Below are positions 8,100-48,591 of a DNA stretch of 64,000 bases, piece by piece. Every line of letters starts with the position of its first letter. Positions within the stretch are counted from its first letter, which is position 1. The notes below the pieces were generated by a model. It made no database searches. It had not been told where the DNA came from and saw only the letters and a program-made list of their open reading frames with translations. The stretch spans positions 372,001-436,000 of the forward strand of contig QPGO01000033.1 of the NCBI GenBank assembly GCA_008632985.1, written 5' to 3'. This DNA is from Psammoneis japonica (lineage: Eukaryota). The position numbers and the translations under genes were made by a program.

Positions 8100-11000
8100 G
8101 GCATGTCAACTTCATGCAATGAGAATCACTGTTTCGACCACTGTCATCCTTGATGCGGAACGCTGCAGTCGTTTTCCTCCTCTGCTCGCACTTGGATTCC
8201 CCTTGCTGCCACCGCCGTTGTTGCCACTGCATGCAAGGACCTGCCAAATTGCTGCTTTCTCTTGGCCGAAGTGCCACTTCAACCACCTTGCGTGTGGAAC
8301 CTCAGACTCAAGCCAAGCAGGTCCTCTTGTCCCACCTCTTTGAGTTGCTCAGCTGGCAGTCCCACAATCTTTCCATTTCCCACCTTGGGATCATTGCCCA
8401 GCACAAACACTCATGGCTTGACCAACATGTCAGAGAGAGCCACCCGGTCCTTTCAATGCAGTGTGTGTGTTCGAATCAAACTCTTCTCATGCAATGGGAA
8501 GGTCCACGATGATCATGCTCAATCTCCCAAATGTCCAAACCATGTGCATCAACACAGGTTGCAATGAAAAGCATTTTCCAAATCAAAAGGATTCCAGCAC
8601 ACTGCCTCTTGTAAGAATGTGGTCAATTGCCATGGTGTTTGTGGCTGCAGTGGGAGTTGGGTGTTCCGGTGTCCTCGTCAGCACTCAAGAATGCAGAACA
8701 GAGAGACAGCAGAGGAGTGCACAAAACATGTCAAGCAACAACCATGAACTCTGATCATTCCCATTGTGCTCAATCACATGGCAGCCAACAACTCTTTTTA
8801 AATGCTCTTCATTTTTTGTCAGCACCAGGCTGCAGCATGTGCTCCTTGGATCCATCAAATGTGAGTTTCTTGGGAACTGCAAATTCCAAAAAAATGGCAT
8901 TTTCTTTTGTGGTTGTTGTCAGTTGGCTTGTCTTGTGTAACTCTGTTCTGGCACACCTTGGTGGCAGTCTTCTGCACCAAAGAAGGGGTGGATGATCTAA
9001 CATCCGGTCACTTCTGAGTGGCAGGATTTCTTGCCCCTGACACAAAAATGTCCTGTCTGACATGCAACACCCCTTCCTGCTGACACATCAATTGAATGGT
9101 GTTTGCAAGAAGTGCACTCACTTGCAGCAACAACATGAATGCTTGGGGCTTGCAACCCATTCCAAGGATGAGGAAAAACTGAACATTGGTCCAAGAAACA
9201 ACCCAGCCAGTCATTTGATTCATTGCAAATGAGTTGTTGTTGTTGCTTGCCTCATTGTTGCTACATTGATCATCACCAACACTGCTCTTCATCTTGTCTG
9301 TGTTTTCCTTGTTGGAGTCATCATTGCTGTCTTCACTGCTGCTGCTGCAGTTGTTTTTGGTGCCTCTCTTGGGCCTCCCTTTGGGTCTTTTGCTGCACTG
9401 TGCTTCCGACCCACTTCTCTGTCAGCCTCATCAGCCTTCTTGTCTTTTTTGCAGGTGTTTGTTGCCAACTTGCGACCTTTGCCACAGCACCCTGAGCCTC
9501 CTCTCTTGCTTGAATGAGGCTGCAAGGACTCAAGAGTGCTTGCCCCCATTTGAAAAAAATGGCACAACAACAAAAAAGCATGTTGTTGCGCTTTTGCCAT
9601 TTGCTGGCTGCAGCAGCAACAGCACAACTCACCCATTGAAAAAGCTGTGAAGACAAGGACAGCATTTTGCTGGGGTTGATGATGAGCCATGCACTGCATT
9701 TTGGTTTTTTGTGGCAGCTGTCTCTGAACTCAACTTTCAACGAAGTTGGCCAGCCATGTCAACCTGCCAGCATCCCAGAAACACCCCAGTCAATTGTTGC
9801 CAATGACATTTTTGTGAATCTCATCTGCCTCACATGCAAAAGCTGAGGACATTGAATGTGGCAAAACATGTGCACTTTTTAGCACCAAAATGAGCAAAGT
9901 TTTGTCAAAACAAAGAAGCTCACAATTTTGTCAATCTCTCAATGCTTGACATCTGAAATGTGCCTCAATGTTGTCCAGGGTTTTGCCGCACAACAATTTG
10001 CGAGCCCTGGCTCAGAATGTTGCCTGCGCCACTTGTCAACTCTTTCTTGGGATGTGTTGGATGTGACTGGCTGTTGCACCCCCCAAAACATGACACATCA
10101 CAGCACACTGAGGTTGGCACGGTCGCTGCTGGTCTCTTGCCCACACAGCCACTTGTCACCCTTGCATTTCTTGGGAAGAAAAGAAAGACTTGAAACTTGA
10201 CGACCTTGTTGCTGCTGCCTGTGGTGTCAGAGGTCAAAATGGAGCACACCAGCCAAAATGTTGCAGACCAAGGTGGGTCCAAGGGTCTTTGGTGGATGTC
10301 AGTCATCCCAAAGAACCATGGCAAACAGCTTCAGGGTGAATCTCTTGTCCATGCAGCCACTTGTCACTTGAGCAGGAGATTTGAAATTGATGCTGCCAGA
10401 GCTGCTGTGATGCTGGGTGTGTCAAAATGGGGTTCACCAACCAAACAACTGTGGCCCAAAAGGTTTGAGGGTCTTGGTGATTGCCAGGCATCACTTTGAG
10501 AACCATGGCAGGGACAGCTGCAGGCAGGGTCAATCTCTTGCCCATGCAGCCACTTCTCACTTGAGGAGGACACATGAAATTTGATGCTGGCTGTGGTGCT
10601 TGACATCGAAATGGGGCCAAAGTGCCAAACAGCCACAGGCCAAAGGGTCCCAGAGTCTTTGGCAGGCATCAGGCACCATTTTAAAAGCCATGATGAACAG
10701 CTGCAGGGTCAATCTCTTGTCCATGCAGCCATTCTCACCTGCATGCCTGGGAGAGGAGACTTGAAATGTGATGCTGGATGCTGGTGGCTGTGGTGCTGGA
10801 GGTCAAAATGAGGCCCGCCAACCAAACAACTGCAGGCTGAAGGTTGAAGAAGGGTCTTTGGCAGGTGCCAGGCATCACCCCAAGAACCATGGTGAACAGC
10901 TGGTGCAGGGTCAATCTCATGCCCATGCAGCTCGCTCTCACCTGCATGTGTGAGGAAGGAGGCTGCTGGAAATGTTTGGAAGCACAGAACCTGCCACTTG

Positions 11001-11933: not shown

Positions 11934-12926
11934 CTAGTCAAATTTGCTTCCATGAATCACCTTGACATGATCTGAGAGAGGGACAAGTGGATTAGGCGTT
12001 GAATGGTCAGCGTACCAATGCGAAATGTGAGAAGTCACGACACGGAAAAACTGACGATAGCCCGCTTGTTTCTGTGGCAATGCTGCATGAGGAGTACAAT
12101 CCGTCATCCAAACGAGTTCATTGGCCGCTGGTGTAGAGCTTGTTCCTTGCATGAGACGACGTAAATGATTGCACCCACCATGGCGATCAACTGTGCCTGG
12201 GACATTCTTGTCGACGAGAGCATCCCACAATTCACTCGTATCGCGGACGTTGGAGGCCATGTAGATGCCTCCATAATATCGATCGGGCTCACAGAACATA
12301 CCCATGCCCCACGGATGCTCCTCACCCAGATCAAACTCTGATGCGTTCGGGTCATCGGAAAATACCCCGGGCGATTCAATGCGGAGTCCCTGACGTCGCT
12401 GGGCATCTCCGGCTTGCACCAAACTCTCGTGAACCGTCAAGTAACCGACTTGGCCAAGTTCTTCTTTCATGTGTGGACACTTTTCTATGCAGCTGTCATG
12501 GTAGCACTGAAGATAATCAGGGAGTGATTCCTTATCTCCAAATCGAAACGGCATCATGTTTACGTTTCGGTCAGCAGGCTCTGGGTATTCCACAACTCCA
12601 CACGACGCCCACGCAACGGATCCTGTGAGAGAGGGCGCGACAAAGGTTCGTTCGGTCCATTGGGGATAGCTTCTACCCCGAGGAAAAATGTGCAACCAAA
12701 AAGTGGCAGCCTTTCGCAGTGCCACAACAGAGCAATTCATTCTAAAGCCCACGACACAGGCTCTTGTTTTGAAAAAGGATGAAGGGGTACATACCGAATT
12801 TTGTTCCGTTCGACCGGGAGGTGGAGCCAGAGGCCGGCCACCGCAACAACCAATCGGAAGAAGCCCTGAAATATTCAAGCGCCGTATAAAAGTGCCAGCG
12901 GAGTTTGCCGTACACGGCTGATGCAC
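11934..12926 (-). CDS. Conserved hypothetical protein with a possible 2OG/Fe(II)-oxygenase-like fold; start uncertain, possibly degenerate
   Basis: 330-aa ORF with motifs NMMPF, YLTVHES, RRQGLRIESPG, GGIYMASNV, WMTDCTPH and RQFFRVVT...STPNP. The N-terminal part looks frame-disrupted. Confidence 0.55.
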   Translation of the reverse strand: MHQPCTANSAGTFIRRLNISGLLPIGCCGGRPLAPPPGRTEQNSVCTPSSFFKTRACVVGFRMNCSVVALRKAATFWLHIFPRGRSYPQWTERTFVAPSLTGSVAWASCGVVEYPEPADRNVNMMPFRFGDKESLPDYLQCYHDSCIEKCPHMKEELGQVGYLTVHESLVQAGDAQRRQGLRIESPGVFSDDPNASEFDLGEEHPWGMGMFCEPDRYYGGIYMASNVRDTSELWDALVDKNVPGTVDRHGGCNHLRRLMQGTSSTPAANELVWMTDCTPHAALPQKQAGYRQFFRVVTSHISHWYADHSTPNPLVPLSDHVKVIHGSKFD

Positions 12927-13009
12927 CGTTCACTACTACTGTAGTCCCCAAGATGCTTCAGGCTACTAATAAAAGAACAGAAACGGCCGGCTCTTACGGT
13001 ACAACGACA

Positions 13010-16000
13010 TCATGACTGTGCATCCTGAGACTCGTCCGGCACGGTCAAGAGTAGACTCTTTTTTCGAAAAGCATCCAACGTTAATCCCATGTGCATACTT
13101 GTGATTGAAGCGTTATACCGTTGCCTTCCCTTAACAGACGACCTGTGAGCGCTGGAACCTGCTGGCGAAAAGATTGAACGATAATTGCTTGACAACTGGT
13201 CCGCTTTGGCCTTTGCTCCCCATTCTTCGTATAAACGATGTGCATCTGACAAATAAATTGAAGCCCAATATTCATCGCCATGCTGTGACAGAAAATTCCT
13301 GCTCGTTCACTCGCCAATGCAGTATCTTGAAGAAAGCCAGCTCTTTTTGATGTCTTGATTGCAAGGTCATAAGCACCTTTTACCTTGTCATTCGCTTCCT
13401 TGACCCCGAGGGCCTTGTATTCCGCATCCAAGAGTTGGAGCTTGTGTAGACAGTTGCCAACCCCAGATTTAACCCATTTACGCATTGCCTTGATATCAAC
13501 CCGAGCGCTAGTTTTGAATTTTCGCTTTGCTGTTGTTTGCGCCAAGTCAAGATGCGCCAAACCTTCAAAGAATACGAACACGAAGTAAACAAAGTGACTT
13601 TTCAGATTTTTGCAATTCGTTCGGAATTGATTCGCCATTTCCAGTGCAACGTCCAACTCTCCAAAGTAGTACGCCAGCTGCAAGCGTTGAAGCCAAACAC
13701 TCTGCACAGCTGGACCTTTACCACCGCATTCCACAACGTACAGCTCCTGGTTCATCACTTCGCCAGTCAATACAACGGGATCCTCATTCTGCCCCATAAG
13801 ATTCAATATGGACTGCCAATACGGAAGGCGTCCCTGCAGCATTGTCATAAGACCGTGTTCTCGGGCCTGGCCTACATACGAACGAATGTCGCTCTCCACC
13901 GGCTAATGGAGAAGAGAAAGTAGAAGGCAAATGGTAAGGTACGAGAGTAATTGATTCAGATTTAGCACACCTGGTAGACAAATATGCAAAGTAGACCATT
14001 ACTCACGTCCAGTGGAAGGCCGCAAAAATAGTAGGCTTGCGAATACAAACCAGCTGCAATTGACCCGGATTCAATGTCTCCAGATTCCATTCCAGAGTAA
14101 TGCGCTGCCAGGAGCGCATCGAGTGAATCATGAAGGGGCGCTTGCCAAGGATTGATAAAGGAATGCACCAGCACAAGAACACGCGCTTTGCACTCCTTTG
14201 CCCGAAGCCTCTCGACCAGCTTAATGGCAAGGCTGCCAAGTCGATAAGCCTCCTTAAACTGCCCAAGGGAACATAAAAGTACCGCATAGTTTGCAAACGC
14301 AAAAGTTGAAACATTCGTCACACCATGTGCAAGCGTAAGCTGCACCATACGAAGGATGCACAATGCAAAAAGGGAAGACTGCTCCAGCCAAAACGCGCAG
14401 ATAACCATGGAGTTCAATACCTTTAAGGCCGCAATTTTGTCGGCATTCTCCATCGCGCCAAGATTTTCAATGTCACTGTCGCTTCTATTCCTTAACATTC
14501 GCTTGGTCTTTACAAAACCAACCAGGACACGCCATGTAGACGCGTTCTTGGGAAAGTTCTCGCCTAGATCGCCCAGGACGGCGAACCCCATATCCATGGC
14601 TTGTTGGAACTTTCGTTCCGAATGAAGGAGCGTTTCCATCAAGACACAAAATGCTGGAAGCTTGTCGTGTAGGGAGTGTGCATTGGTCATGACCGTTTCA
14701 GAGGTAGCCTTGCAGTCTTTCGTACTCCCATTGCAATAATGCATTTGCGCAGAAGCAACATGGAGCTTGAGCGACAAATCGTAGTGGTCAGCCCACGAAT
14801 CTTTATGATTCAGCGATGACCACGAAGCCAGTGCCTTGATCCCGGATAAAAGATAGTCGGAAGCGGGGACAAAGGCGGAAAGTGAGATGGCTTTGATACC
14901 CACCTCTAGATTTACAAGGGCAAGCTCGAGCAGTTTCGACGAGTTCGAAATGCACGATGCGCCTCGGTTCAGCTGTTGCGCTGCCGTGAAAATGATGTTT
15001 TCTTCTGTTTTCCCGTCCTTTACTAGCATAGATAGAGTTTCTCCGATTCGTAAATGTAGTTGATTTCGATCGCCTTGTGGAATAAGTGAGTACGCCGCCT
15101 GCTGAATGCGATCGTGGACGAATCGGCATCGATCTTGCGGTAATTTCTCAACCAGACCCTCATCTATTGCAACGGTAAGGATTTTTAGAACGTCCTTCTT
15201 GTTCTGAATCGACATATTGTTGCCATTCAATCGCTGCAATACAGGCATTAAAACCTCAATATCGAACGTGTTGGACCACAAGCTCGCTGCAATCGACATG
15301 CAAAACTGAACATTCTCGTTTAGCTTTCCAATTTTTCCTGCCACGACTTGTAATACATTTTCGCAAATGCTTGTCTCCTCTTGGATTTCTTGCAGATCCC
15401 ACGTCCACTGAAACTTAACTAGAGAAAATCGCAAGAGTTTCTCCTGGACAAGGAGATCCAAGAACTGGAGGATAAAAAATGCATTTCCCAGTGTTCTGTG
15501 GTGCACCAATTCAGCTAATGGCGCCACATCGTCCACATTGACAAGGTTGGATATCATCTCATTGACCGTGCTTACACTCATGTTTTCAATTTTGATAGAA
15601 ACGCTGTGCTTATCATCTATCGTTTCTTCGATGTGGGTTGTATCGTCGTCGTCCCGAAAAGCACAAATAAGCATTATACCACGTTCAACCATCGCTGCTG
15701 CTTTGATCAGTTCCAATGAAGATGCATCTGCCCATTGTAAATCATCCATGAATATTATGAAAGGACGAAAGTGTGCAGTGATTGCACGGAGAAAAGCTCG
15801 AAATGTATACGTCAGTTTGTGTAAGGCCTTGGAATCGTCTTGAGCATATTGACGACTTATTTCGGGTTGCTCTCCAAGAACCTCGCTCAGCCTAGGAATC
15901 AAGTTTGCCAGGATGTGTGCTTCTGCCCCTACCGCGTCCTGTATTGCACTTCGAATTTCTTCTCTATCATGAACTTGGTCAATCAACTCATTCATTGCGT

Positions 16001-16265
16001 CTGCTACGGCGGCATAGGGTTTGCCCTCGCGATATTGATTAAATTTCCCGGAAACATGTTTGATAGGAGTGGAACCGCTATAAAAGTGGTGCACAAGAGC
16101 TGATTTGCCCGTTCCAGAAGCACCCTGAATAAACACCGTGCAACTGTTATTGCATTCAACGTCGTCATAAATCTCTTGCAACTGATTCAGTTCCTGCGAG
16201 CGCCCGAAGAGTGGCAATTCCTTCGTTCTTAATTGTGGACAATTCAGATGCGTAGGATCCAACAT
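13010..16265 (-). CDS. STAND-class (AAA_16) P-loop ATPase with C-terminal TPR-like helical region
   Basis: LFGRSQE, Walker A GASGTGKS, Walker B IFMDDLQWAD, TLGNAFF, FVHDRIQQAAY and C-terminal YEEWGAKAKA. Intron 13903-14006. 1-bp frameshift in an A-run near 13292. Confidence 0.85.
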
Positions 16266-16389
16266 TTTCTTCCGAATTCGCTGAGTACGTATGTAAAGGA
16301 GGACGACGATAATTCATGATTCTCCATCATCATCTTGTCGTTATCTTGTCTCTTGTTTCTTGTGATGGATTCGCGCTTACGGAAGAAAC

Positions 16390-17460
16390 CCGGAAAGTCA
16401 CTCAGCCATCAGCCATCACACATCTTGTCGCGTCAATTGTGACAGCCACGACGGACCTCAACAATGCCCTTGCCGCCATTCTGTGGTGGTTCTAGCTGCA
16501 TTTGATGAGGACAATGTTGCTCACTGTGTCATTTTCGAGGACCCTCACTTAAACGCTGAAACCCCGCGAAACATTTCGGCCTGGCATCACTGGCGCCGAC
16601 AGCAGCAGCACAAGGCCAGTCTCCACCACTTTGTGCAACTGTGAATGTTTGGAACAGCCATGATGACAAAGGCCAAGGAATCTCTGCATCGTTGGCACAA
16701 CATGGTGTTGCTTGCGCGTGCTTTTGTTTTCTTCATTCTTGCGTGAGAGTGACAGCAGAGACAATGAGGATGGGAGAGGGCTGGAGAGCCCAATGCTTGA
16801 GTGCCACAATCACACTGTTTGCTCGAGGTGCAGCTGGGGCCATTTCTCTGTCATGTGACTGGAACAACTGATGGCGAGAAACTTCAAGAAGAGGACATGA
16901 TTGGTCCTCAGCCTCTGTCTCAGCAGTGGCTGGTCAAAAGAAAATGCACTGTGCTGCCCAGTCTTCAAGGAAATGTGAAGAGCACCATCATGTCGTGACA
17001 TGGTCTGCTGCACCCCCATTCTTTTTGCAAGACCTGCAATGGCCATGTCTGCAAGACACAAGAAAAGTTCTGTGTTTGCCCACCATCTTTTTGAGTTTTG
17101 CCTCTCATGCTGCCACACACTTGTTTGTTGCTCTTTTTGTCGCGCAAGTTCATGCAAGGCTGTTTCTGTCTTCATTTCATGCACATGGGTTTTATTGCAT
17201 GGCATCCTCTGCCTCATTTCTTTCATTTGTTCCATTGGAAACCTGCGCGCTGTTGGGGTTTTTAGCCAACTCTCTTGTGTGAATCACCCTGGAGTCCTGG
17301 AGAGAGTTGGCGCGTGCCGGATTGCAAAAGGTTGCCGCTGCAGGATGTTTTCATCATCAGTGACATTGAGTCTCGACGAGCCACTTTGGGACCATGAGAG
17401 CGAGTGCTTTTCAATCTTGCATCTTTTGGGCCCGCAAAAGGTGAGAAGGTGGCAACAGTC
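16390..17460. mobile_element. CpG/TpA-depleted degenerate block B (unidentified repeat remnant)
   Basis: TA is almost absent and CG reduced over ~1 kb between two intact genes. No recognisable protein. Confidence 0.45.
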
Positions 17461-17715
17461 ATGTTTGTACCGTGTGTTGGCCGCAAAAAATTTAGCGCGC
17501 GTCATTCGCGATCCGAATTTACCTATTTGTATCAGGCAGACATGCTTTTCGAATGGAGATTTTTGATTGGGCGACGGGGTTCTCGTTGACATTTCAAGCA
17601 CGAAGAAAGAGAATAGCAAAATCTTGATGATATGTTCCTCGCATTTGCTCTCGGCATTGGATCGATCTTTCTGTATTGTAGATTGTACAGTAGCTTGATT
17701 GAAAGAGAGAACATC

Positions 17716-18699
17716 ATGGTGGCGATGAGCATGAGATACGTTCAACTTGTTCGATGTGCTTCCTTACGTTGTGGAGTCAGTAAGAGCATCCGTTCGGGGA
17801 CCGCGATCCGATCCCTCTCGTCCTGTAGCTCGCCCGGAAGAACAAGCTCCATAAGGGTGTTTGCAACCATGGCAGAGTCGCCCATGTTCGCGTCGACTGC
17901 AGTCAGCACTCCGACTCATCTAGTCAAGAAAAAAGTTACTGAAGAGTGGGACGAGTCAATGGTTCCTGCGTATCTGGATGATACCTACTGGTGGGCGTAT
18001 ACTCGACCGTGGGCCGTAAGAATCTTTGAACGAAAGTGGCTGGTGAATTCGATTTTGTGGGGAAATTTTGAACTGCTTCGTGATGCAGCTCTCGACGAGA
18101 TTCACCATCAGCAAATTCAAGCAGCTTCAACCAACGATTGTCCTCAGGCACAATCAGTACTACAAATTGCCTGTGTCTACGGGGAATTCTCAGAAAAGTT
18201 ACTTTCACTGCTTCGACCACACGATGCCCTGACGATTGTCGACGTGGCTCCGTCCCAGCTTGAAAATGTTTCCAGAAAGCTAAGTCTCGAGGACAATCAA
18301 TTTCTAGATGAAACTCATCGTCCACGAGTCAATGTATTGCAGCAAGACAGTTCCGACATGGATCAATTGCAGGATGGATCGCAAGACACGGTTTTTCTCT
18401 TTTTCCTCTTGCACGAGCAACCCGAGCATGTACGCCGAAAAACCTTGAAGGAAGCCATTCGTGTACTGAAACCATACACGGGAAAGCTAGTCATTGTCGA
18501 CTACCACAAACCATCCAGTGCATGGAACCCCTTTCGATACATTATGGAGCCAGTGTTTTGTCTGTTGGAACCCTTTGCCATGGATTTGTGGAGGCATTCC
18601 ATAACACACTATATCCAAGACGACAATATCAAAGTGACCTCGTCCAAGCTGTACTTTGGAGGTCTCTATCAGAAACTTGTCATTGAGAAAGAAGGATAG
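17716..18699 (+). CDS. rquA: Rhodoquinone biosynthesis protein RquA with probable mitochondrial presequence
   Basis: Hallmark motifs VPAYLDDTYWWAY, LVNSILWGNF, QIACVYG, IVDVAPSQL, LFFLLHEQP, VDYHKP, LEPFA and FGGLYQK. The N-terminal extension is Arg/Ser-rich with no acidic residues. Intronless; start at ATG 17716, 17725 or 17731. Confidence 0.92.
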   Translation: MVAMSMRYVQLVRCASLRCGVSKSIRSGTAIRSLSSCSSPGRTSSIRVFATMAESPMFASTAVSTPTHLVKKKVTEEWDESMVPAYLDDTYWWAYTRPWAVRIFERKWLVNSILWGNFELLRDAALDEIHHQQIQAASTNDCPQAQSVLQIACVYGEFSEKLLSLLRPHDALTIVDVAPSQLENVSRKLSLEDNQFLDETHRPRVNVLQQDSSDMDQLQDGSQDTVFLFFLLHEQPEHVRRKTLKEAIRVLKPYTGKLVIVDYHKPSSAWNPFRYIMEPVFCLLEPFAMDLWRHSITHYIQDDNIKVTSSKLYFGGLYQKLVIEKEG

Positions 18700-19120
18700 A
18701 CAATACAAAACTATACAAGCCGGGTTCAAGGTTTCGGTGGTACAGTGCGTTCCATGGTAAAGATACCTCTAGAGCTTCTCAAACCAGATGAAGGATGGTA
18801 CGAATGAAGCGTTTGTGAAAGTCGTTTCTCATTTTGTTACATAGCTTTAGAGCATTTAGTCATTCTACGAAGCTTTACGCGTAGGATGTTAAGCTCAGCA
18901 AAGATCAAAAGTAGTACGTCTCCAGAGATCGTACTGTAGGGTCCTACTTCAAGACAAGATACATTCTAGAGCGCTTCAATTCGAATCTTCATTCATCAGT
19001 TGTTTCTTCGGACTGAGATGTTCTCGCCAGAGTCGATGACTGTGGGCCCGATGGCAAGAGTACTAACGCTCTCTCCCTCTCGAGTAGACTCTATGCGTGT
19101 GTAGTTTTCACGTACAAAAA

Positions 19121-20128
19121 TCACACCACGCTGACAAGCTCTATGAATCTCGCTTCCAGCCAATTCCCCACAAACCATCCAATGCCTGCTGCCCACCAAG
19201 GCACCTCTCGTAGGGTCGTCCACAAGTCTTGCTTTCCCGATGCAATCGCACCAAACGGTACAAAGGAGGTGGATTGATAAAAGTTTTGCAATTCATCAAA
19301 ATCATCAAAGGTTGTTCCCACCGATCCTTCTTGTCTCGAGACTCTCAAATCTTGCGCAGCACATCCACAAATGGCATACACGGCGAGTCCACCAAAAAAG
19401 AGCCAATCCGCAGGACGGCCACCCAATATCATGGCATTGGCAATTCCCCACGGAACAACCGGAAGAATCAATGGATGACGAGTAATTCGAGTCAAACCTC
19501 GAGCAGTAAATTTGGAAGCATCGTTTCGAGTGACGGATCCAGATTCGGATGTTTCAAATCCTGGCATTAATCCGAGTGGCGATGCGTTTGCCAAGGATGC
19601 ACCGGCGGCTGCAAACGAAGCAGCCGCCACTGCAAAACAATAATCTGATGACTCTGATGGAATGGCTATTGGATCGGATTCAAGATAGAAATAAAGAGCA
19701 TTTCCCAAGGTTACAAAGGAGATTGCAGTGTACAAGGCTCGGTACAATTGTCGTCCGGTTGTCTCGCTGTCAGAAAAGATTTGATTCTGACCAACACTGT
19801 CGCCCGGCCAGAAATCTGGCAATTTCCATTCCTGGTTTCCCACAAGACCACTTGTATCAGCACTCTCTCCCAACCAGCCGATAATTCTGCCTCGTGTGGC
19901 TGACATGCCAATGTGAGATGAACTAAAGGCTGCAATCCAGAACGCAATCTCTTCTTCATGAGCGGCTGCAGCACTACGAGGAATTCTTGCACGCGTCAAT
20001 GATTCTTTTCTCGTCACTGGAAGCACCGAGAAAAATGCATGAGAACAAGACATGAAGGATAAACACAGCAACAAAAGAATGCGCTTGCACGTGAAAAGAC
20101 AGCGGGGAAAAGCCGTTCCTCGCGTCAT
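19121..20128 (-). CDS. NnrU / Z-ISO-like membrane protein, probably plastid-targeted
   Basis: AFSSSHIGMS, YRALYTAIS, GLTRITRHPLILP and TSFVPFGAIASGKQ match NnrU-family motifs. The signal peptide ends in SHA|FF. Confidence 0.8.
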   Translation of the reverse strand: MTRGTAFPRCLFTCKRILLLLCLSFMSCSHAFFSVLPVTRKESLTRARIPRSAAAAHEEEIAFWIAAFSSSHIGMSATRGRIIGWLGESADTSGLVGNQEWKLPDFWPGDSVGQNQIFSDSETTGRQLYRALYTAISFVTLGNALYFYLESDPIAIPSESSDYCFAVAAASFAAAGASLANASPLGLMPGFETSESGSVTRNDASKFTARGLTRITRHPLILPVVPWGIANAMILGGRPADWLFFGGLAVYAICGCAAQDLRVSRQEGSVGTTFDDFDELQNFYQSTSFVPFGAIASGKQDLWTTLREVPWWAAGIGWFVGNWLEARFIELVSVV

Positions 20129-20606
20129 GGTCACTTTTATTTTTTATGATACGCATGCGAAGAATCCAAAAGTGTTGAATTCGAACCGACACTTTTCCGA
20201 GCAGAAATTTCAAAATCAACCATGGCCATCAATGCTCCGATGCAAATTACAGTACTTGCCACAAAATACATCTTCGTTGTTGGCATCACAAGAGCAGCTC
20301 GAGTGCGTTTCTTCTTTTTTTCAAAATCAGCTAGAACATGAGCCCAGAGTTTGGAGCCCACGCATCACACACGCATTGGAATCCAGCGACAGGTCCAGTC
20401 GCCGAACACTAGCAGAATAACAAGGACTACGCTAGTCGAGTGGATTAGCTAGAGGGAAAACAAGTTCCTTGTGTAGAATGTGCTAGTATAATACAATCAT
20501 ATGCTATGATATTATTCAACAACAAGCCATCAGTTCTCTAGAGAGCCGCTTTTCTCTACCTGTACCTATTGTATCTGTCTGCCTTCGTATAACACCAAGT
20601 ATTCGT

Positions 20607-22086
20607 CTAAGCCTTCTGTCCAATTTCCTCGAGCATGGTTTGGAACCATTCTTGTTTGATATCAAAAGGCTTTCCACCCTTGATGCGTTCAAATTCAATA
20701 GCCCGAATGGGCGTTCCTTCCTTGTCTTCATCTTGTCCCATGCATCCACTGACACCCTCCAAAGCCGACGCGACACCCACCTTGGCACACTTGCCAATCA
20801 AGTCCCGATCAAAGTCATTGGCGGCGGCGGCTCGAGAAAAGTATCCCGATTTTTGCACCAGAGTCTTTTCGGCACCCACCAATTTGGAGAGGCGTTTGGA
20901 AAAGTACAGGCCGGGATTGATTTTGGCGAGAGCGACTGTGTCATTGAAAAAACAATAGAGATATGAATTCATTATGAGAAACACATAACAACAACAAATT
21001 CTACACAAGAAATACAATCAGTACATATAACGCACCATGGCCAAACGCATCACGAGGAACTTCTTCTCCTGCTTGTTCCATTTCCGCGACAATCTCATGA
21101 ACACCCGATCCTTCTCCAAAAAAGACATTGACATTTCCATGCTTGTCCATGATTTTCTTGAGACGATCCGCTTCGGCTTCAATATCAAGCGGCAATTCGG
21201 GAATCCAAATGGCATGCACATCCCGACTGGCCGCCGAGGTACAAAATCCGGGCACAAAGGTTTGCTTGGCAAGCCGTTCTCGATAGGCCTTGGCGGTGGC
21301 TGCCGTCAAGTATCCCGAATCCCGTCCCATGCATTCGTGCAAAATGAGCATGCGCGGATTGGCCGTGGATTCGGAAACGACATTTTCAAAAAAGAGCGCT
21401 CCCTGATGGGCGGCCGTGTCGGCACCAAAGGTCTGAACAATGGGATAAACGTCATTGTCAATCGTCTTGGGCATGCCAATGACAACCACCTTGCCGCCGT
21501 GTTCGTCGAGAATGTACTTGGACAATTCGGCAGCCTGTGTGTTGGTGTCGTCGCCACCGATCGTGTGCAACACATTCACCTTGTCGGCAATCAGACGCTG
21601 AGCGGCAACTTCAAGAGGAGATTCGTCGGGTTGAACAAAACCGCGAGCGACGCAGTCCTTGACGTTGGTGAGCTGTTTTGTGTAGTTGTAATGTTACATA
21701 GATAAGTGAATATGGTTAGAAAAGATCACAATAACAAAAAACAGTTCTTACACACAGCAGAAATACTTCAGAAATAACTCCTGAAAAACAAAACTCTTAT
21801 TCGAAACACTCACCTTGACTCGAGAATTGCCAATCGGACTGCCACCCAAATAATTGAGTGCCTCCGCCGCAGCCCACGTTTCTTCTGGAACTAAAAAGGA
21901 GTCTCCCGTCAAGACGCCCTTGTATCCATCCACGTACATGCGCAACGTCAATCCCGAAATGTCTCCCTGTTTGAGAGCCTCGGCCCAGTATCCGATCAAT
22001 TGAGCGATACTGGAGGACAGACACGGGGCTAATCCACCCGACGTCATGAATGCGACATTGACTGTAGGCTTATCTGAAGAAGACAT
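20607..22086 (-). CDS. pfp: Pyrophosphate-dependent phosphofructokinase (bacterial-type PPi-PFK)
   Basis: TSGGLAPC, GGSPIGNSRVK|LTN, IGGDDT and MPKTIDND (PPi-specific Asp/Lys), MGRDSG, QKSGYFSR. Introns 21673-21813 and 20936-21035. Confidence 0.92.
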
Positions 22087-22450
22087 GTTAGATACTGTTG
22101 TGAAAGAGTTGTTGTTTCAATGCCAGTTTAGCTGTTGTTGCAATAGAGAAAATGAGAATCGATTGGAGAGGAAGAAGCGAGAAAGATGCGGCGGTGTGTC
22201 TTTGTGCCAACTGCTCGAAGATCTTTGCTACGTCAGATACAGTATTGATTCTACATACTTCGATCTTAACCTGATAATCAGTACTAAAAAGATAGAGAGA
22301 AGCGCAAAATCTGCTGAATTTTCATTGGTCGCCAGAGTTCGGCAAATCCATCAGCGGGGGACGTGCAGACCCCTCTTTTGATTGGATCGCCACGTCATCA
22401 TGATATCACTGCATTTTCGTTCTCATTTTTTCTCAAAACATCGTCGAACC

Positions 22451-23180
22451 ATGATGTTTTTGGTGTCCACGTCTCGTTTCGTGTTGCGGGCTACTGCAAC
22501 CGCTCGTCCAATGATTGTTGCTGCTCGTGGATTTGCTACCGTAGGCGACAAACTTCCATCGGTGGAGCTTCACAAGGGATTTCCACCCGAAAAAGTAAAC
22601 ATTGCAGACTATGCTCAAGATCGTAATCTCATTTTGCTTGGTTTGCCCGGAGCTTTTACGGTAAGATCTTGTTGCTGTGTTTTCTATTTTATTACTGTCG
22701 TGTGTAGTATTGTTTTTGAAGATTCTACTCATGCAATCCTGCTAACAAAACATGACGCCACATCATAACAACACACTATAACAACAACACACAGCCCACG
22801 TGATCCACAAAGCAAATTCCCAATTACTTGGAGCATCAAGACGCGCTCCGCAAGGTTGGTGTCGAGCAGGTGATTGTCTATTGTGTCAATGACGGTGCCG
22901 TCATGCAGGCATGGGGTAAGGATCAAAAGGTGGGCGTTAGCATGCTGCGACTCATGGGGGATCCGGCCGGTGAGTTGACGGGGCGCTCGACATGGAATTA
23001 AATCATCCCGGCCCTGCGTCCAAGGGCATTTTGGGACGATGCAAGCGATTTGCCATGCATGTAGTCAAGGGTGAAATCAAGGCCATTCGAGTCAGTGAAG
23101 CAGAAGACGATCCGGCGGGTGATGCAGATCCGAGTGCGACATTGGCGGATGCCATGATTGAAGCCATCAAACAAGAATAG
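22451..23180 (+). CDS. Peroxiredoxin-5 (type II Prx) selenoprotein candidate with mitochondrial-type presequence
   Basis: Exon 1 (22451-22660) ends GLPGAFT. After intron 22661-22794, exon 2 reads PT-TGA(22801-22803)-STKQIPNY...YCVNDGAVMQAW...GRCKRFAM. One G is missing from the G-run at ~22980. Confidence 0.85.
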
Positions 23181-24582: not shown

Positions 24583-27500
24583 TCAAGACTTGTTTGCCTT
24601 CTTGCGCGCTCGTTTCCATTTGCGAAATGTTTCCGTGTCGTACTTTTTCTTGGCCTCCTTCATACTCATACTCAACGCATCCTCTGAAAACGCCATTTCC
24701 ATGTCACCATTTTCATCCCAAAGCTGCTCCACAACCACAAGGCGACAATCGTTGGGGATTACCGTATTATCGGAAAGGGCTTTTTCGAGTGAAAGAGCGT
24801 CTTGTAATGCACGTTCTACTTCCTTTGCGTATGCGTTGGCTCTTGGCAGGAGCAACTGCTGAGCGGCTTGGGCCTCAACTGGATCGAGCCACAAATGATC
24901 ACTGGACCGCCGTAGTAATTCAGAATGTCTTGCCAGTTGAAAGGATCGTTGTTGCAGAATGTTCCCGAGGCGCGACGACTCTGTTGCAAGAGATTGGATT
25001 GCTTCAATGTCGGATTTCCGACCACCAGATTCCCCAGTTACATCGCCATTGGTCTTTCGGACAAGAGCAATGGCTTCCTGGCGTAACCCGTCAAGCAAAA
25101 GACGAAATTGTCTCACTACGGATAATGCCGAGGATTCTAAAGACTCATCTTCAATCGTTGTCGAAGACACGTCACAGCTTCCCGGCGTAATGTGATTCCA
25201 TAGCCACTCTCTCACCGCCGCACGTTGTTCGGGGAGTCGCCACACAAGATGTTGCAGCAATAGACAGTCGACCGGATCAACTCTTGTCCGACCGTGGCAA
25301 GCCGCACTGATTTTGAGGAGTCTTGTGCTTTTCACGAGGCGTCGATCACTCACGTCCACGTCAAACTCATTTCGCATAAACGTTCTCAACTCTCTCATCA
25401 AGGTACAAGCATCGTCATCCATGACAACGTGGTCCGCCGCAGCTGACACATCCATGACTAGTGTATCTAAATCGTCTGTAAAGACAGTTTCACAAGTCTC
25501 CGCCCCGCCTTCTGCTGGATCATCACAAGGAGAACCTCCCGGAAGTTCCATACGAAGCATTTGCAGCACACCTTCATCCGACACGGGAAGAACTTCTTTT
25601 CTCAACAAGAAGCGATCATATAGCGCATCCAGTTCGTCACTTTCTGGAAGCTCGTTCGAGGCACCAACGACACATCGAATGGGACAATTCTCACGGACAC
25701 CCGCTCCATTGTCAAACGTTCGTTCATTGAGAATGGTCAAGAGAGTATTCAGTATTGCAGAATTTGCCTTGAAGATTTCATCCAAAAAGGCAACCGACGC
25801 TGTAGGAAGAAAGCCATCCGTTTTACGGCGGTATTCATCGTTTTCCAAGGCTCGGAGTGACAGCGGTCCAAAAATCTCTTCTGGTGTAGTGAATCTTGTG
25901 AGTAAACGTTGAAAGAAGGTTCCGCCGCATAGCTGTGACAAGCGTCGGCCCAATACACTCTTTGCTGTTCCAGGTGGACCGAGAAAGAGAACGTGTTCTT
26001 GTGATACCATTCCAAGCACTACAAGGCGTGCTTCTTCTTGCCGCTCCACGAGGCCCTCTGCAACTCGATCAACTGCATTTTGTAGCTCTTTGCGATACCG
26101 CCAACAAGAACCTATTGACGACTTTTCCTCGTCTAGCATGGAAACATTCCAGCGATCGTCAGCCACGCCTTTCTTTACGTCGTCTTTTAGTTTCTGTATC
26201 ACTTGGTCTGCCTTTACGTTGAAATCAGAAACTGGAGTGGAACTGGAGGCTTGTGAAATTGTCTGAGCGGACGCTTCTTCCGCCAATGAGTCCCTCTCTA
26301 TGAACAAGTCGACATTTTGGTCGTAGCGAGATTTTCTAGTGTACGAACGACCTCTGCGCTTTCTCTGGCCACCCCAATCTTCATCGTCGTCTTCGTAATA
26401 GTCTTGATATCTGGCTTCCAACGAAGTTCGACCATCCGTGATGAGTCTCCTAGTACTAAGAAACCTCCTCGCATGGTTTGTGGTGCCAGCTGGAAGTTGG
26501 TGACTTGGTGTGTTTGCCAACCTCTTGGATCTCAAAAGTGTGCGACTTCCAGTATTCCAATCATCAACTGCGCTCGCGGCGGTTGGAGTCACTGACTCGT
26601 AGCCAATCAAAAAGTCGTGAGTATGCGTGCACAACTTTGATAGGGGAGCACTTTCACGCTTGCCCACCAACAAGCCATGTACCTGGACACCGGCTCGCTG
26701 TTTGAGTCGATCCAGCGCTTGCATCACTACTTCCGACACTGGTGGGTCTGGGATCTCACCGTCTGTTACTAGTAAAATGTCGGCGGCAGCCATGGCGTTT
26801 AGATCACGCTGATGAACAGAGGTTGAATTCAATGGGCTTTCTTCCGTCGTCGTTACTGCCATTGCGTGCTTGAGAGCCCCCGTTACGTCTGTCCCACCGC
26901 CAAACGAAGACGATAAGAATTCCAACAAGCGACGTACGCCATGAGCGTCTGCTGAAATTGGTCCAGTTTCCATTGTGTTGCTTGCCGAAGAAAAGGCAAC
27001 AACCTGAACATCTCGTTTGTGCTTGTGAGCCGCAGCTACACATGCTAAGACTACAGCTTTGGAAAGCTGTTCCCGTCGTCCCGTCATGGACCAGGATGTA
27101 TCTAGGCAAATCATGATTGGTCCTCCCGGTGCAGACGGCAATCGCGAAAAATATCGTGGTTTCGGAACATTACTGCTTGGAACGTCCTGCCACCCCGCGG
27201 ACTCGTAGCTGAGTAATTTGGACTCTACCATTTTTGCAAGAAAGAGTCGTCGCAGCGCTGACTGTGTTGGCTTTTCGTGCTCCTCTTGCTTTTGTGCCAA
27301 AAGAAGAGCCTCGGAAGGAAGCATTTCGGAAAGACTTCCCGAGAGGGTAATGCCTCGAATTGATGTACGCCGAGAAGAATCATACTGCGCTCCCAATGCG
27401 CCCTCCTCGTCTAGTCGACGAGGGACAAACTTGTGCATGGCCTCACTTTGTTCCGCTGTTGGACGGCGTCCGAGCAACGAAATCAACTCTTTGATTTCGG

Positions 27501-28329: not shown

Positions 28330-28759
28330 AATCTAATGCTAGAGTCAAACCTGCACGTGGTTTGCATCGCCGAGGCCAGCCGCAATCCTCGTCATGGTGG
28401 CCAATATTTCATATCTCCCGAATCATCGCATCATCGCGTGCGTGTTGGAGGGAAAAACGGGCGCATTGCAGACGGTATGAATACGATAGAACGCACGCAC
28501 GGCAAGCGCTGTTCCATTTATGAATGTCTTCATTCAAGAAGAAACAGCATAAATATCAACGTTAAATAACATGAGAACTCCGATACATATCGCGCAAGAC
28601 ACATTTGACGTCGTACTGTATGTACCGTACAGTACAGTACTTCTTGCCGGCACGTTTCAACACCACGACTAACCGCATCCCGCATCATCACTCTACACCG
28701 ACCGACCTTGTGCCTCATATGAATTGATCTGTCAAGTATGCAACGAATTATTGGACACC

Positions 28760-48157: not shown

Positions 48158-48591
48158 TCAAAAGTGACGGGTACGCTTGCCCTTGGGAGCCTTGGAGCTT
48201 CCCAAACTGCTAGAAGGAGACTTGGATTCCTTCAGCTGACGGCGTTTGCCCTTGGGAGCCTTGGACGAGGGAGACTTGGATTCCTTCAATTGACGGCGCT
48301 TGCCCTTTGGCGCCTTGGAGCTCGAGGGAGACTTGGATTGCTTCAATTGACGGCGTTTGCCCTTGGGAGCCTTGGACGAGGGAGACTTGGATTGCTTCAA
48401 TGACGGCGTTGGCGCTTTGGCGCCTTGGAGCTTCCCGAACTACTCGATGGCGACTTGGTGCTCTTCGAGTCCTTTCCTTTCAAGGCCCTCGCAAACACAC
48501 TAGCGTACTCGTCGCGTAGACCAAAACAAGACGTTGCGCACAGAGACACAAGGAGAGAAATGAGAAGAGGAACAATGAGGGAGAACTTCAT
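48158..48591 (-). CDS. Silaffin-like secreted Lys/Ser-rich repeat precursor
   Basis: Signal peptide MKFSLIVPLLISLLVSLCATSCFG, then RAL, then ~5 units of K(E/Q)SKSPSS(S)KAPKGKRRQL (54-57 nt repeats). One 1-bp frameshift at ~48400. Confidence 0.75.

What the first reader, a model, noticed from the sequence alone, without database searches (positions are those of the whole stretch)
17716..18699. rquA in a photosynthetic diatom: capacity for rhodoquinone-based fumarate respiration
RquA converts ubiquinone to rhodoquinone, which lets complex II run as a fumarate reductase. It is patchily distributed in microbial eukaryotes through lateral transfer. Here it is intronless, has a mitochondrial-type presequence and lies next to a decayed repeat block. 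This suggests adaptation to dark anoxia, as in sediments.
Basis: partly seen in the sequence, partly recalled or inferred. Interest (0 to 1): 0.72.

Follow-up and report, generated by a model that had tools for sequence, protein, structure and literature searches.

The report
Second-lineage rquA gene in a diatom
A diatom nuclear contig carries an intact, intron-free gene for RquA, the enzyme that turns ubiquinone into the low-oxygen electron carrier rhodoquinone; diatoms were already known to have such genes, but this copy belongs to a different branch of the family than the diatom copies described so far.

Summary
The ORF at 17716-18699 (+) is a genuine rquA. It scores 254.9 bits on NCBIfam's RquA equivalog model (cutoff 175), and all but the last position of that model is matched. 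It is intronless. Its roughly 80-residue N-terminal extension looks like a mitochondrial presequence.

The gene is not a contaminant. GC and GC3 match the neighbouring genes. DNA depth is even across the gene and its flanks. The next gene is a diatom NnrU-family gene, and the flanking genes have spliced introns. The best bacterial match is only 54% identical.

The "decayed repeat block" next to the gene was not found.

RquA in diatoms is not new: Stairs et al. 2018 reported it from three diatom transcriptomes. What is new is the branch. This copy and one metagenomic relative group with rhizarian RquAs (Reticulomyxa, Apiculatamorpha), away from the known diatom group (Attheya, Fragilaria). An AU test rejects joining the two diatom types (p 3.7e-61).

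Rhodoquinone production, mitochondrial location and use in anoxia are inferred, not shown. Verdict: real, ordinary in function, modestly novel in evolutionary origin.

The parts
17716..18699 (+). rquA coding sequence, 327 codons plus TAG stop, no intron
   Evidence: ORF listing and sequence. NF038261 RquA equivalog 254.9 bits against cutoff 175. An X2 contig is colinear with 17753-18822.
17716..17865 (+). Predicted mitochondrial presequence (residues 1-50), with an R-x-F|A motif at residues 47-50 (17854-17865)
   Evidence: 8 K+R, 0 D+E, 12 Ser. First acidic residue at 54. Maximum 12-residue hydropathy 1.15. pLDDT is below 60 for residues 1-70. 'RVF' and the following 'AESP' are conserved in P0001. 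The cleavage-motif rule is recalled, not from a call.
17962..18696 (+). Catalytic core (residues 83-327), class I SAM-dependent methyltransferase fold of RquA type
   Evidence: The NF038261 match covers residues 83-324. AF2 pLDDT is above 93 except for residues 191-200. Foldseek finds yeast Coq5 4obw_B at TMt 0.72 and PE N-methyltransferase 8ys9.
18160..18189 (+). RquA-type altered SAM motif I (residues 149-158, L-Q-I-A-C-V-Y-G-E-F)
   Evidence: In the 63-sequence alignment A3, Y155 is invariant and L149, Q150, C153 and V154 are nearly invariant. [quoted passage not shown]
18241..18348 (+). The two acidic SAM-contact positions: D176 (18241-18243) and D211 (18346-18348)
   Evidence: D176 is invariant in A2 and A3. 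D211 is present here. In bacterial rows of A2 the two Asp lie 25 residues apart, as do D118 and D143 of R. rubrum RquA, which Neupane 2022 reports as key aspartates required for RQ synthesis in vivo (PMC9814641, passages). The mapping is inferred; the R. rubrum sequence was not in hand.
18103..18153 (+). Variable insert (residues 130-146) that bacterial RquAs lack; it carries the allelic differences
   Evidence: Alignments A1 and A2. An X1 contig shows 7 substitutions and four small deletions summing to 6 nt between 18109 and 18146, so the frame is kept.
17632..17715 (+). In-frame upstream extension from an earlier ATG (28 codons, hydrophobic); a possible alternative start, judged less likely
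   Evidence: ORF 17632-18699. Hydropathy 2.33. P0001 has no such extension. The start context was read from the sequence.
18700..18822 (+). 3' untranslated stretch present in the X2 contig
   Evidence: X2 record 12 covers 17753-18822.
19121..20128 (-). Convergent neighbour: NnrU-family membrane protein with a signal-peptide-like N-terminus (context; marks the contig as diatom)
   Evidence: Pfam NnrU, E 1.8e-11. All named homologs are diatoms, 44-61% identical. Hydropathy 2.63 at residue 17. X1 unitigs chain it to rquA.
13962..16265 (-). Divergent upstream neighbour: AAA_16 ATPase gene with a spliced intron just downstream (13903-14006)
   Evidence: Pfam AAA_16, E 1.3e-25. X2 joint 13902>14007 with CT..AC ends.
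20936..21813 (-). Phosphofructokinase gene segment with two spliced introns (20936-21035 and 21673-21813), on the same X1 unitig as the NnrU gene
   Evidence: Pfam PFK, E 4.8e-23. X2 joints 20935>21036 and 21672>21814 with CT..AC ends. X1 record 8 spans 19126-22925.

Best explanation
This is a nuclear gene of a diatom that encodes RquA, and it appears to be transcribed.

The protein is made with an N-terminal presequence of about 50 residues. The presequence most likely sends it to the mitochondrial inner membrane and is probably cut after R-V-F.

There, like characterised RquA, the enzyme would bind S-adenosylmethionine and Mn2+ and replace a methoxy group of ubiquinone with the amino group of SAM. 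The product is rhodoquinone. Rhodoquinol has a low enough potential for complex II to run backwards as a fumarate reductase. Complex I can then keep pumping protons when oxygen is lacking.

Shown here:
- family membership
- an intact frame in two alleles
- nuclear diatom context
- no intron
- cDNA-like cover
- a separate phylogenetic position

Inferred:
- the enzyme activity
- mitochondrial targeting
- the physiological use in hypoxia or dark anoxia

On origin, the gene entered this diatom lineage separately from the RquA of the known diatom group. It shares an ancestor with rhizarian RquAs, and the nearest bacterial rows in the tree are a Sedimenticola MAG and the unnamed P0250.
For: Family membership:
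- NF038261 equivalog at 254.9 bits against a cutoff of 175, model positions 1-217 of 218.
- All 12 invariant columns of a 63-sequence RquA alignment are kept.
- The core is modelled at pLDDT above 93 with a Coq5-like class I methyltransferase fold.
- 6 of the 120 listed homologs carry NCBI's name RquA.

Nuclear diatom context:
- Window GC is 0.44-0.51 throughout.
- rquA GC/GC3 is 0.477/0.498, inside the neighbours' 0.46-0.53/0.41-0.59.
- X1 depth is 55-57 over most of rquA and 57.3 on the flank.
- X1 unitigs 17691-18694, 18665-19155 and 19126-22925 overlap by 30 nt. They chain rquA to the NnrU and PFK genes.
- The NnrU neighbour's 6 organism-named hits are all diatoms.
- The best of 588 bacterial genome matches is 54% identical.

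Transcription and integrity:
- X2's contigs carry intron-skipping joints with GT..AG ends, read on the gene's strand, at four places in neighbouring genes. X2 therefore behaves as cDNA.
- One X2 contig covers 17753-18822 colinearly.
- A second allele in X1 differs by an in-frame 6-nt deletion.

Presequence:
- Composition and the RVF|A motif.
- Similarity to P0001 extends into the extension, query residues 30-325.
- Stairs 2018 report that all complete eukaryotic RquAs have predicted mitochondrial signals and that Pygsuia RquA localises to the organelle (section 13).

Mechanism:
- Neupane 2022, abstract and passages.

Phylogeny:
- Careful IQ-TREE, 79 rows x 265 columns. Window + P0001 has support 100/99.
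- They sit in an 8-row clade (100/94) with Apiculatamorpha, Reticulomyxa + P0023, and P0243/P0252/P0259.
- Adding the Sedimenticola MAG and P0250 gives a clade with 96/90.
- A one-residue insertion (P-S-S-A-W-N-P-F against bacterial P-T-S-I-N-P-F) is shared by all 8 rows.
- A W-[DE]-x-x-hydrophobic-[IV]-P motif before the core is shared by 5 of the 8 rows: window, P0001, P0243, P0252 and P0247.
Against: - No rhodoquinone measurement, no enzyme assay and no localisation exists for this protein.
- No targeting predictor could be run.
- An earlier in-frame ATG at 17632 would add a hydrophobic, signal-peptide-like start. The X2 contig starts only at 17753, so the true 5' end is unknown.
- X2 is on record as 'DNA?' and comes from the same sample as X1. 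It is probably the sample the window was assembled from, so it is not independent. Contigs give no expression level.
- No single X1 piece spans rquA and a flank. Linkage is by 30-nt unitig overlaps.
- The rest of the pathway (ubiquinone synthesis, complex II type) could not be checked, because no genome is held.
- Purified RquA needed oxygen in vitro (Neupane 2022 passages). Synthesis may have to precede anoxia.
- The tree has no experimentally verified RquA (R. rubrum, Pygsuia, Euglena).
- I chose its rows by hand from about 520 proteins held, after seeing a quick tree.
- The AU groups were named after the tree was seen.
Confidence: 0.8

Rival explanations
1. The locus is bacterial contamination or a chimeric join in the assembly.
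For: RquA is mostly a proteobacterial gene. The gene has no intron. The nearest named sequences are bacterial MAGs.
Against: - The best bacterial identity is 54% among 588 matches.
- The protein has an eukaryote-style 80-residue extension that it shares with P0001.
- GC and GC3 match the neighbours.
- DNA depth is even, and unitig overlaps run into intron-bearing diatom genes.
- Two alleles are present.
Confidence: 0.02
2. The gene was inherited vertically from the same acquisition as the known diatom RquA (Attheya, Staurosira, Synedropsis, Fragilaria) and has only diverged strongly.
For: Both are diatom genes with N-terminal extensions. [quoted passage not shown]
Against: - The core is 42% identical to Fragilaria RquA but 50-55% identical to bacterial RquAs.
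- The tree places the two types in separate, well-supported clades.
- An AU test rejects window + P0001 with the 8 known-type rows (delta lnL 110.5, p 3.7e-61).
- An AU test also rejects, less strongly, holding them with the whole 28-row clade around those rows (delta lnL 46.5, p 0.011).
- The indel patterns differ. This type has an extra residue before N-P-F, where the Fragilaria type has a two-residue gap.
Confidence: 0.06
3. The diatom lineage and the rhizarians each took the gene separately from closely related (Sedimenticola-like) bacteria, with no eukaryote-to-eukaryote transfer.
For: A Sedimenticola MAG and P0250 are the nearest outgroups (96/90). Eukaryote rows could attract each other through shared composition.
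Against:
- The one-residue insertion is shared by all 8 rows, and the W-[DE] motif upstream of the core by 5 of them. Both are absent from the bacterial rows.
- All 7 complete rows of the clade have N-terminal extensions; P0259 is cut at its N-terminus.
Confidence: 0.25
4. Translation starts at 17632, and the hydrophobic N-terminus sends the protein into the ER or plastid route instead of, or as well as, the mitochondrion.
For: The in-frame ATG at 17632 has no stop before 17716. The 12-residue hydropathy of 2.33 is close to the 2.63 of the neighbour's signal peptide.
Against: - P0001 starts at the position equivalent to about 17731 and has no such segment.
- 17716 has A at -3 and G at +4. 17632 has G at -3 and T at +4, and an out-of-frame ATG overlaps it just upstream (sequence).
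- Ubiquinone, the substrate, is mitochondrial (established knowledge).
- Other eukaryotic RquAs are predicted or shown to be mitochondrial.
Confidence: 0.1
5. The protein has the RquA fold but another activity, for example an ordinary quinone methyltransferase, so no rhodoquinone is made.
For: Activity is untested. D211's position varies among relatives: it is N in Reticulomyxa, Apiculatamorpha and Fragilaria.
Against: - It scores above the equivalog cutoff, against 28.3 bits for UbiE/MenG.
- It keeps every invariant RquA column and both Asp.
- It keeps the RquA-type motif I.
Confidence: 0.05

Closest known systems
RquA of Rhodospirillum rubrum (biochemically characterised; Neupane et al. 2022, PMC9814641; Lonjers 2012, as cited by Stairs 2018)
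   Same: Same NCBIfam equivalog family. Same altered motif I. Both Asp positions are kept (inferred mapping). Same predicted fold.
   Different: This protein has an eukaryotic presequence of about 80 residues and two inserts (residues 130-146 and about 191-205). It is nuclear-encoded. Identity to the R. rubrum protein was not measured, because that sequence was not in hand.
The 'diatom group' of RquA Group B: Attheya septentrionalis, Staurosira complex sp., Synedropsis recta (Stairs et al. 2018, PMC5953543), and Fragilaria crotonensis KAI2497385.1 (annotated only as a methyltransferase)
   Same: Diatom host, N-terminal extension, same enzyme family. Attheya has a predicted mitochondrial signal.
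   Different: Core identity is only 42%. The clades are separate, and monophyly is rejected. The indels around N-P-F differ. The 2018 sequences are incomplete transcripts, whereas this is a complete gene in genomic context.
Rhizarian RquA: Reticulomyxa filosa ETO28810.1 and Apiculatamorpha spiralis (EukProt)
   Same: Same 8-row clade (100/94). Shared one-residue insertion. Reticulomyxa also shares the W-[DE] motif before the core. Core identity is 46-47%.
   Different: The host supergroup lineage is different. Stairs 2018 report introns in the Reticulomyxa gene, and this gene has none. Reticulomyxa and Apiculatamorpha have N where this protein has D211.
Coq5 / UbiE C-methyltransferases of ubiquinone synthesis
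   Same: Class I SAM-dependent fold. Yeast Coq5 4obw is among the best structural matches, TMt 0.72.
   Different: The score is 28.3 bits on TIGR01934 against a cutoff of 158. Sequence identity in the structural alignment is 14-16%. Motif I is altered. The chemistry is amino transfer, not methyl transfer.

Membership tests
RquA (NCBIfam NF038261, rhodoquinone biosynthesis methyltransferase) | Whole-protein score above the curated equivalog cutoff, over the full model | tested here: met
   254.9 bits against a cutoff of 175. Model positions 1-217 of 218, residues 83-324.
RquA (NCBIfam NF038261, rhodoquinone biosynthesis methyltransferase) | SAM motif I altered relative to other class I methyltransferases | tested here: met
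   Residues 149-158 read L-Q-I-A-C-V-Y-G-E-F. Y155 is invariant and C153/V154 are nearly invariant across 63 RquA rows. The criterion comes from Stairs 2018 section 8. The canonical G-x-G-x-G form is recalled.
RquA (NCBIfam NF038261, rhodoquinone biosynthesis methyltransferase) | The two aspartates required for activity (D118 and D143 of R. rubrum) | tested here: inconclusive
   D176 and D211 are present. Their equivalents in bacterial rows lie 25 residues apart, as in R. rubrum. The R. rubrum sequence was not aligned.
RquA (NCBIfam NF038261, rhodoquinone biosynthesis methyltransferase) | Class I SAM-dependent methyltransferase fold | tested here: met
   AF2 core pLDDT above 93. Foldseek hits have probability 1.00 to Coq5, RebM and PE N-methyltransferase. 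phmmer against PDB sequences gave 0 hits at E <= 0.01.
RquA (NCBIfam NF038261, rhodoquinone biosynthesis methyltransferase) | Converts ubiquinone to rhodoquinone with SAM and Mn2+ | not testable with these tools
   Needs expression and LC-MS.
Eukaryotic mitochondrial RquA | N-terminal mitochondrial targeting signal | tested here: inconclusive
   Composition fits: 8 basic and 0 acidic residues in the first 50, an RVF|A motif, and no hydrophobic stretch. No predictor or localisation was available. An alternative start at 17632 exists.
Known 'diatom group' of RquA (Stairs 2018) | Forms one clade with Attheya/Fragilaria-type sequences | tested here: not met
   Separate clades. AU p 3.7e-61 for the 10-row union. 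AU p 0.011 for the 30-row union.
RquA Group B, rhizarian-associated subclade | Clusters with Reticulomyxa filosa RquA, which Stairs 2018 place in Group B | tested here: met
   8-row clade at 100/94. The Group A/B labels themselves were not reproduced, because no Group A reference other than a euglenid (Petalomonas) was named in the tree.

The most novel reading that the evidence does not exclude
Diatoms acquired rquA at least twice. This copy is not a descendant of the known diatom RquA. It belongs to a eukaryote-only subclade shared with foraminiferal and cercozoan Rhizaria, so the gene would have passed between Rhizaria and a diatom lineage. Rhizarian rows branch first in the rooted-by-bacteria view, which hints at transfer from Rhizaria to the diatom. 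Benthic foraminifera feed on diatoms and keep them or their plastids (recalled knowledge), which gives such a transfer an ecological route. Rhodoquinone-based fumarate respiration would then be a trait traded among sediment protists.
Probability: 0.4. Interest if true: 0.6.

Novelty: new member of a known kind. Interest (0 to 1): 0.42.

Why it matters
RquA is the single gene that lets a ubiquinone-using respiratory chain switch to fumarate as electron acceptor. Its patchy spread is a textbook case of lateral transfer shaping eukaryotic anaerobiosis.

For diatoms, the only published evidence found here was three incomplete transcripts. At the time, no diatom genomic record was available that could exclude contamination.

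This locus supplies a complete diatom rquA in nuclear genomic context. The gene is chained to intron-bearing diatom genes, and two alleles are present.

The locus also shows that diatoms hold two unrelated RquA types. That raises the count of transfers and points to gene exchange among sediment-dwelling protists.

If rhodoquinone is really made, it offers a concrete and testable mechanism for how some diatoms survive burial in dark, oxygen-free sediment. Nitrate respiration is another mechanism (recalled knowledge).

Tried and rejected
- Repeat block: TRF at score >= 30 on 15500-20500 gave only four 17-23-nt micro-arrays. The repeat finder on 16200-19200 gave one 21-nt pair and two short inverted pairs. 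A whole-window scan put the nearest family at 10210-10933. blastn (word 7) of 16300-17715 and 18700-19120 against the window hit only themselves.
- Whole genome: none is held. Complex II, ubiquinone genes and photosynthesis genes could not be sought.
- Exact look-up: neither start variant of the protein nor the NnrU neighbour is in the 15-billion collection.
- Sequencing runs: no RNA holder is listed. Three rows of one study were returned, all 'DNA?'.
- Parts of X2 without cover (16404-17504 and 18973-20440, which include the NnrU gene) are not used as evidence.
- Metagenome scan: 131 stretches matched a pattern, and 1 relative was found (L001, 36% identical). P0001's contig was not retrieved, so synteny could not be compared.
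- Giant-virus lead: the Atlas feature search ranked a cluster labelled mostly Nucleocytoviricota first, at 0.97. A scan of viral contigs with the RquA motifs matched 22 stretches, and none encoded a relative. The lead is dropped.
- PDB by sequence: 0 hits.
- Earlier notes of this scan: nothing for this genome or sequence. The word search returned only bacterial rquA loci, which were not used.
- Cluster look-ups: no organism names for P0001, P0023, P0243, P0252, P0259 or P0250. The identity of the window's closest clade-mates stays open.
- First tree set (84 rows, after dropping 13 partial rows): only its quick tree was seen. It was replaced by the 79-row set that adds Attheya.
- Literature: RquA + diatom returned 7 papers and rhodoquinone + diatom returned 25. 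Among the papers I opened, only Stairs 2018 reports diatom RquA. The 2026 sponge preprint has no occurrence of 'diatom' or 'stramenopile'. The Leontynka, foraminifera and Thalassiosira papers mention RquA or rhodoquinone only for other organisms. bioRxiv supplements are closed and were not seen.
Full report
**What is at the coordinates**

An ATG at 17716 opens a frame of 327 codons that ends with TAG at 18697-18699. An earlier in-frame ATG lies at 17632, and the frame is open from 17617.

Pfam sees only generic class I methyltransferase domains, such as Methyltransf_25 at E 1.9e-10. NCBIfam's equivalog model for RquA (NF038261) matches residues 83-324 over model positions 1-217 of 218. The score is 254.9 bits against a curated cutoff of 175. 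The UbiE/MenG subfamily model reaches only 28.3 bits against 158.

A search of 5.8 billion clustered proteins gave 6502 hits at E <= 0.001 among 7346 candidates. Of the 120 listed, 6 carry NCBI's name 'rhodoquinone biosynthesis methyltransferase RquA', and all 6 are proteobacterial MAGs.

In a 63-row alignment of the family, the window protein keeps all 12 invariant columns. An AlphaFold2 model has pLDDT above 93 over the core, except for a 10-residue insert. Its best structural matches are class I methyltransferases, including yeast Coq5 (4obw_B, TMt 0.72). By sequence, no PDB chain matches at E <= 0.01.

The gene is therefore a bona fide rquA.

**Functional residues**

Stairs et al. [quoted passage not shown] Here that motif reads L-Q-I-A-C-V-Y-G-E-F (residues 149-158). 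Y155 is invariant and C153/V154 are nearly invariant in the family.

Neupane et al. 2022 (abstract and passages) show that R. rubrum RquA alone converts ubiquinone to rhodoquinone. It uses SAM as amino donor and Mn2+ as cofactor, and they report D118 and D143 as key aspartates required for RQ synthesis in vivo.

The window protein has D176 (invariant) and D211. In bacterial rows of alignment A2 the equivalent residues lie 25 apart, as in R. rubrum. This mapping is an inference, because I did not have the R. rubrum sequence.

**Is it a gene of the organism or a contaminant?**

- GC is 0.44-0.51 in every 2-kb step of the window.
- The gene's GC/GC3 (0.477/0.498) lies inside the range of nine other long frames (0.46-0.53/0.41-0.59).
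- The best of 588 matches in one genome per bacterial and archaeal species is 54% identical.
- The window holds eukaryotic genes: a family-3 GPCR, a phosphofructokinase, a VWA-MoxR fusion and an AAA_16 ATPase.
- The gene 421 bp downstream, on the other strand (19121-20128), is an NnrU-family protein. All 6 of its hits that show an organism, among the 120 listed, are diatoms (Thalassiosira profunda, Seminavis robusta, Discostella pseudostelligera, Chaetoceros tenuissimus, and two MMETSP entries beginning 'Detonul' and 'Thalas'), at 44-61% identity.

Two public runs of one sample hold the stretch. They probably come from the sample the window was assembled from, so they are not independent.

Run X1 covers all 30 bins of 12000-23000. 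Depth is about 55-57 over most of rquA and 57.3 on the downstream flank. Its unitigs 17691-18694, 18665-19155 and 19126-22925 overlap by 30 nt and chain rquA to the NnrU and PFK genes. No single piece spans the whole stretch.

One X1 contig is a second allele of rquA, with 7 substitutions and small deletions summing to 6 nt between 18109 and 18146. This falls in an insert that bacterial RquAs lack, and the frame is preserved.

Run X2 is recorded as 'DNA?'. Its contigs nevertheless skip 100-141 nt with GT..AG ends (read on the gene's strand) at 13902>14007, 20935>21036, 21672>21814 and 22659>22794. It therefore behaves as cDNA. One X2 contig of 1070 nt is colinear with 17753-18822, with 0 gaps and 1 differing letter.

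I read this as follows: rquA is transcribed, it has no intron, and it sits among intron-bearing nuclear genes. Contigs cannot give an expression level or a transcript start.

**The N-terminal extension**

Counted from 17716, the first 50 residues hold 8 Lys+Arg, no Asp/Glu and 12 Ser. The first acidic residue is at position 54. There is no hydrophobic stretch: the maximum 12-residue hydropathy is 1.15, against 2.63 for the signal-peptide-like start of the NnrU neighbour.

R-V-F|A at residues 47-50 fits the R-3 cleavage pattern of the mitochondrial processing peptidase. That rule is recalled, not taken from a call. 'RVF' and the following 'AESP' are conserved in the closest relative P0001, where the Met of 'MAESP' is Ile. 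The extension is therefore translated in that relative. phmmer similarity to P0001 runs from query residue 30. The model leaves residues 1-70 at pLDDT below 60.

Stairs 2018 state that all complete eukaryotic RquAs have predicted mitochondrial signals and that Pygsuia RquA localises to its organelle (section 13).

A mitochondrial presequence is thus well supported by composition but not by a predictor or an experiment. The alternative start at 17632 would add 28 residues with a hydrophobic core (hydropathy 2.33). I rate it less likely for three reasons. P0001 lacks the segment. The start context is poorer. An out-of-frame ATG overlaps it.

**The repeat block**

Nothing beside the gene qualifies. 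The 1.45 kb between the AAA_16 gene and rquA is unique in the window. It is a divergent intergenic region, since the two genes point away from each other. The nearest decayed repeats (units of about 190-200 nt) lie at 10210-10933.

**What was already known**

Stairs et al. 2018 list 'a diatom group' among four eukaryote lineages in RquA Group B (main text). Their Supplementary file 1 names Attheya septentrionalis, Staurosira complex sp. and Synedropsis recta. All three are MMETSP transcripts marked 'Incomplete'. Attheya has predicted mitochondrial signals: MitoProt 0.9969, TargetP 0.94, MitoFates 0.986.

The genomic records in which they found rquA introns did not include a diatom.

In the protein collection I also found a genome-derived copy from Fragilaria crotonensis (KAI2497385.1), named only 'methyltransferase domain-containing protein'. 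The Attheya transcript (P0413) is 72% identical to it.

Full-text searches for RquA + diatom (7 papers) and rhodoquinone + diatom (25 papers) turned up no other report of diatom RquA among the papers I opened.

**Where this copy sits**

The core (residues 83-327) has these identities:

| Compared with | Identity |
|---|---|
| P0001 (one JGI metagenome protein) | 70% |
| Bacterial RquAs | 50-55% |
| Reticulomyxa and Apiculatamorpha | 46-47% |
| Fragilaria | 42% |

Among representatives of 1.84 billion clusters, P0001 scores 399 bits and the next hit 233.

I built a tree of 79 rows x 265 columns (IQ-TREE, LG+C20+F+G4 by PMSF, ultrafast bootstrap / SH-aLRT). I chose the rows by hand from about 520 proteins held, after seeing a quick tree of an earlier 84-row set.

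- Window + P0001 has support 100/99.
- They lie in an 8-row clade (100/94) with Apiculatamorpha spiralis, Reticulomyxa filosa + P0023, and three unnamed metagenome proteins (P0243, P0252, P0259).
- A Sedimenticola MAG and P0250 join next (96/90).
- The Attheya/Fragilaria rows form part of a separate 28-row clade (100/99).

Holding window + P0001 together with the 8 known-type rows costs 110.5 log-likelihood units (p-AU 3.7e-61). Holding them with the whole 28-row clade costs 46.5 (p-AU 0.011). Both groups were named after the tree was seen, so the second value in particular is only moderate evidence.

Independent of the tree, all 8 clade members share a one-residue insertion before N-P-F, where the Fragilaria type has a two-residue gap. 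Five of them (window, P0001, P0243, P0252 and P0247) share a W-[DE]-x-x-hydrophobic-[IV]-P motif upstream of the core. The bacterial rows lack both features.

**Interpretation of origin**

The simplest reading is that this diatom lineage obtained rquA separately from the known diatom group. It would have come from within, or together with, a eukaryotic subclade that includes Rhizaria.

Rooted on the bacterial rows, rhizarian sequences branch first, which hints at transfer from Rhizaria to the diatom. The inner nodes are weak (94/50 and 95/78), and the hosts of P0243, P0252, P0259 and P0023 are unknown.

Separate uptake from Sedimenticola-like bacteria by each lineage remains possible. [quoted passage not shown]

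**How it most likely works**

The steps below are inferred from the family, not shown here.

1. The precursor is imported into the mitochondrion and processed.
2. The mature enzyme, probably sitting on the inner membrane, converts part of the ubiquinone pool to rhodoquinone, using SAM and Mn2+.
3. When oxygen is scarce, complex I reduces rhodoquinone and complex II reoxidises rhodoquinol by reducing fumarate to succinate.

Purified RquA needed oxygen in vitro. The pool may therefore be built before full anoxia, which suits a phototroph that is buried or darkened gradually.

**Limits**

- No genome is held, so the partner genes could not be checked.
- No RNA-labelled run was listed.
- P0001's contig could not be fetched.
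- 'Photosynthetic' rests only on the organism being a diatom with a plastid-type signal on the NnrU neighbour. The link of NnrU-family proteins to carotenoid isomerase Z-ISO is recalled.

**Verdict**

The gene is real, is a member of a known enzyme family, and sits in a host group where that family was already reported. The modest novelty has two parts. First, this is a complete diatom rquA in nuclear genomic context, chained to intron-bearing genes and present as two alleles. Second, diatoms hold two phylogenetically separate RquA types.

Noticed in passing
window 19121-20128 (-): NnrU-family gene convergent with rquA, 421 bp between the stops. Its N-terminus has a hydrophobic signal-peptide-like stretch followed by S-H-A|F-F, which resembles the diatom bipartite plastid-targeting motif (recalled). 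It may be the carotenoid isomerase Z-ISO (recalled).
   Followed up: partly
window 18109-18146: A second rquA allele in run X1 has 7 substitutions and a net in-frame 6-nt deletion. All changes fall inside the eukaryote-specific insert.
   Followed up: partly
window 10210-10933: Decayed direct repeats with spacing of about 180-200 nt, 63-88% identical (families D9, D11, D14 and D16).
   Followed up: no
window 57887-59837: Three to four tandem copies of a unit of about 622 nt, 86-99% identical, overlapping long open frames.
   Followed up: no
window 44667-45272 and 48216-48429: Tandem arrays of 199 nt x 2.9 and 54 nt x 3.9.
   Followed up: no
window 28673-31296 (+): Family-3 GPCR (ANF_receptor plus 7tm_3) whose 7TM domain continues in a second frame from about 30481. 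An intron or a frameshift is likely.
   Followed up: no
window 24583-28332 (-): A single 1249-codon frame joins a VWA domain to a MoxR-type AAA ATPase (bpMoxR, AAA_5, AAA_lid_8).
   Followed up: no
window 46958-47595 (+): An RNase_PH domain is split over two frames, which suggests an intron.
   Followed up: no
window 17716-18696 (protein): The ESM Atlas feature search ranked methyltransferase clusters labelled mostly Nucleocytoviricota among the nearest, the first at 0.97. A motif scan of viral contigs found no RquA relative.
   Followed up: yes
P0398 (Fragilaria crotonensis KAI2497385.1): A genome-encoded diatom RquA of the known type sits in GenBank under the generic name 'methyltransferase domain-containing protein'.
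   Followed up: partly
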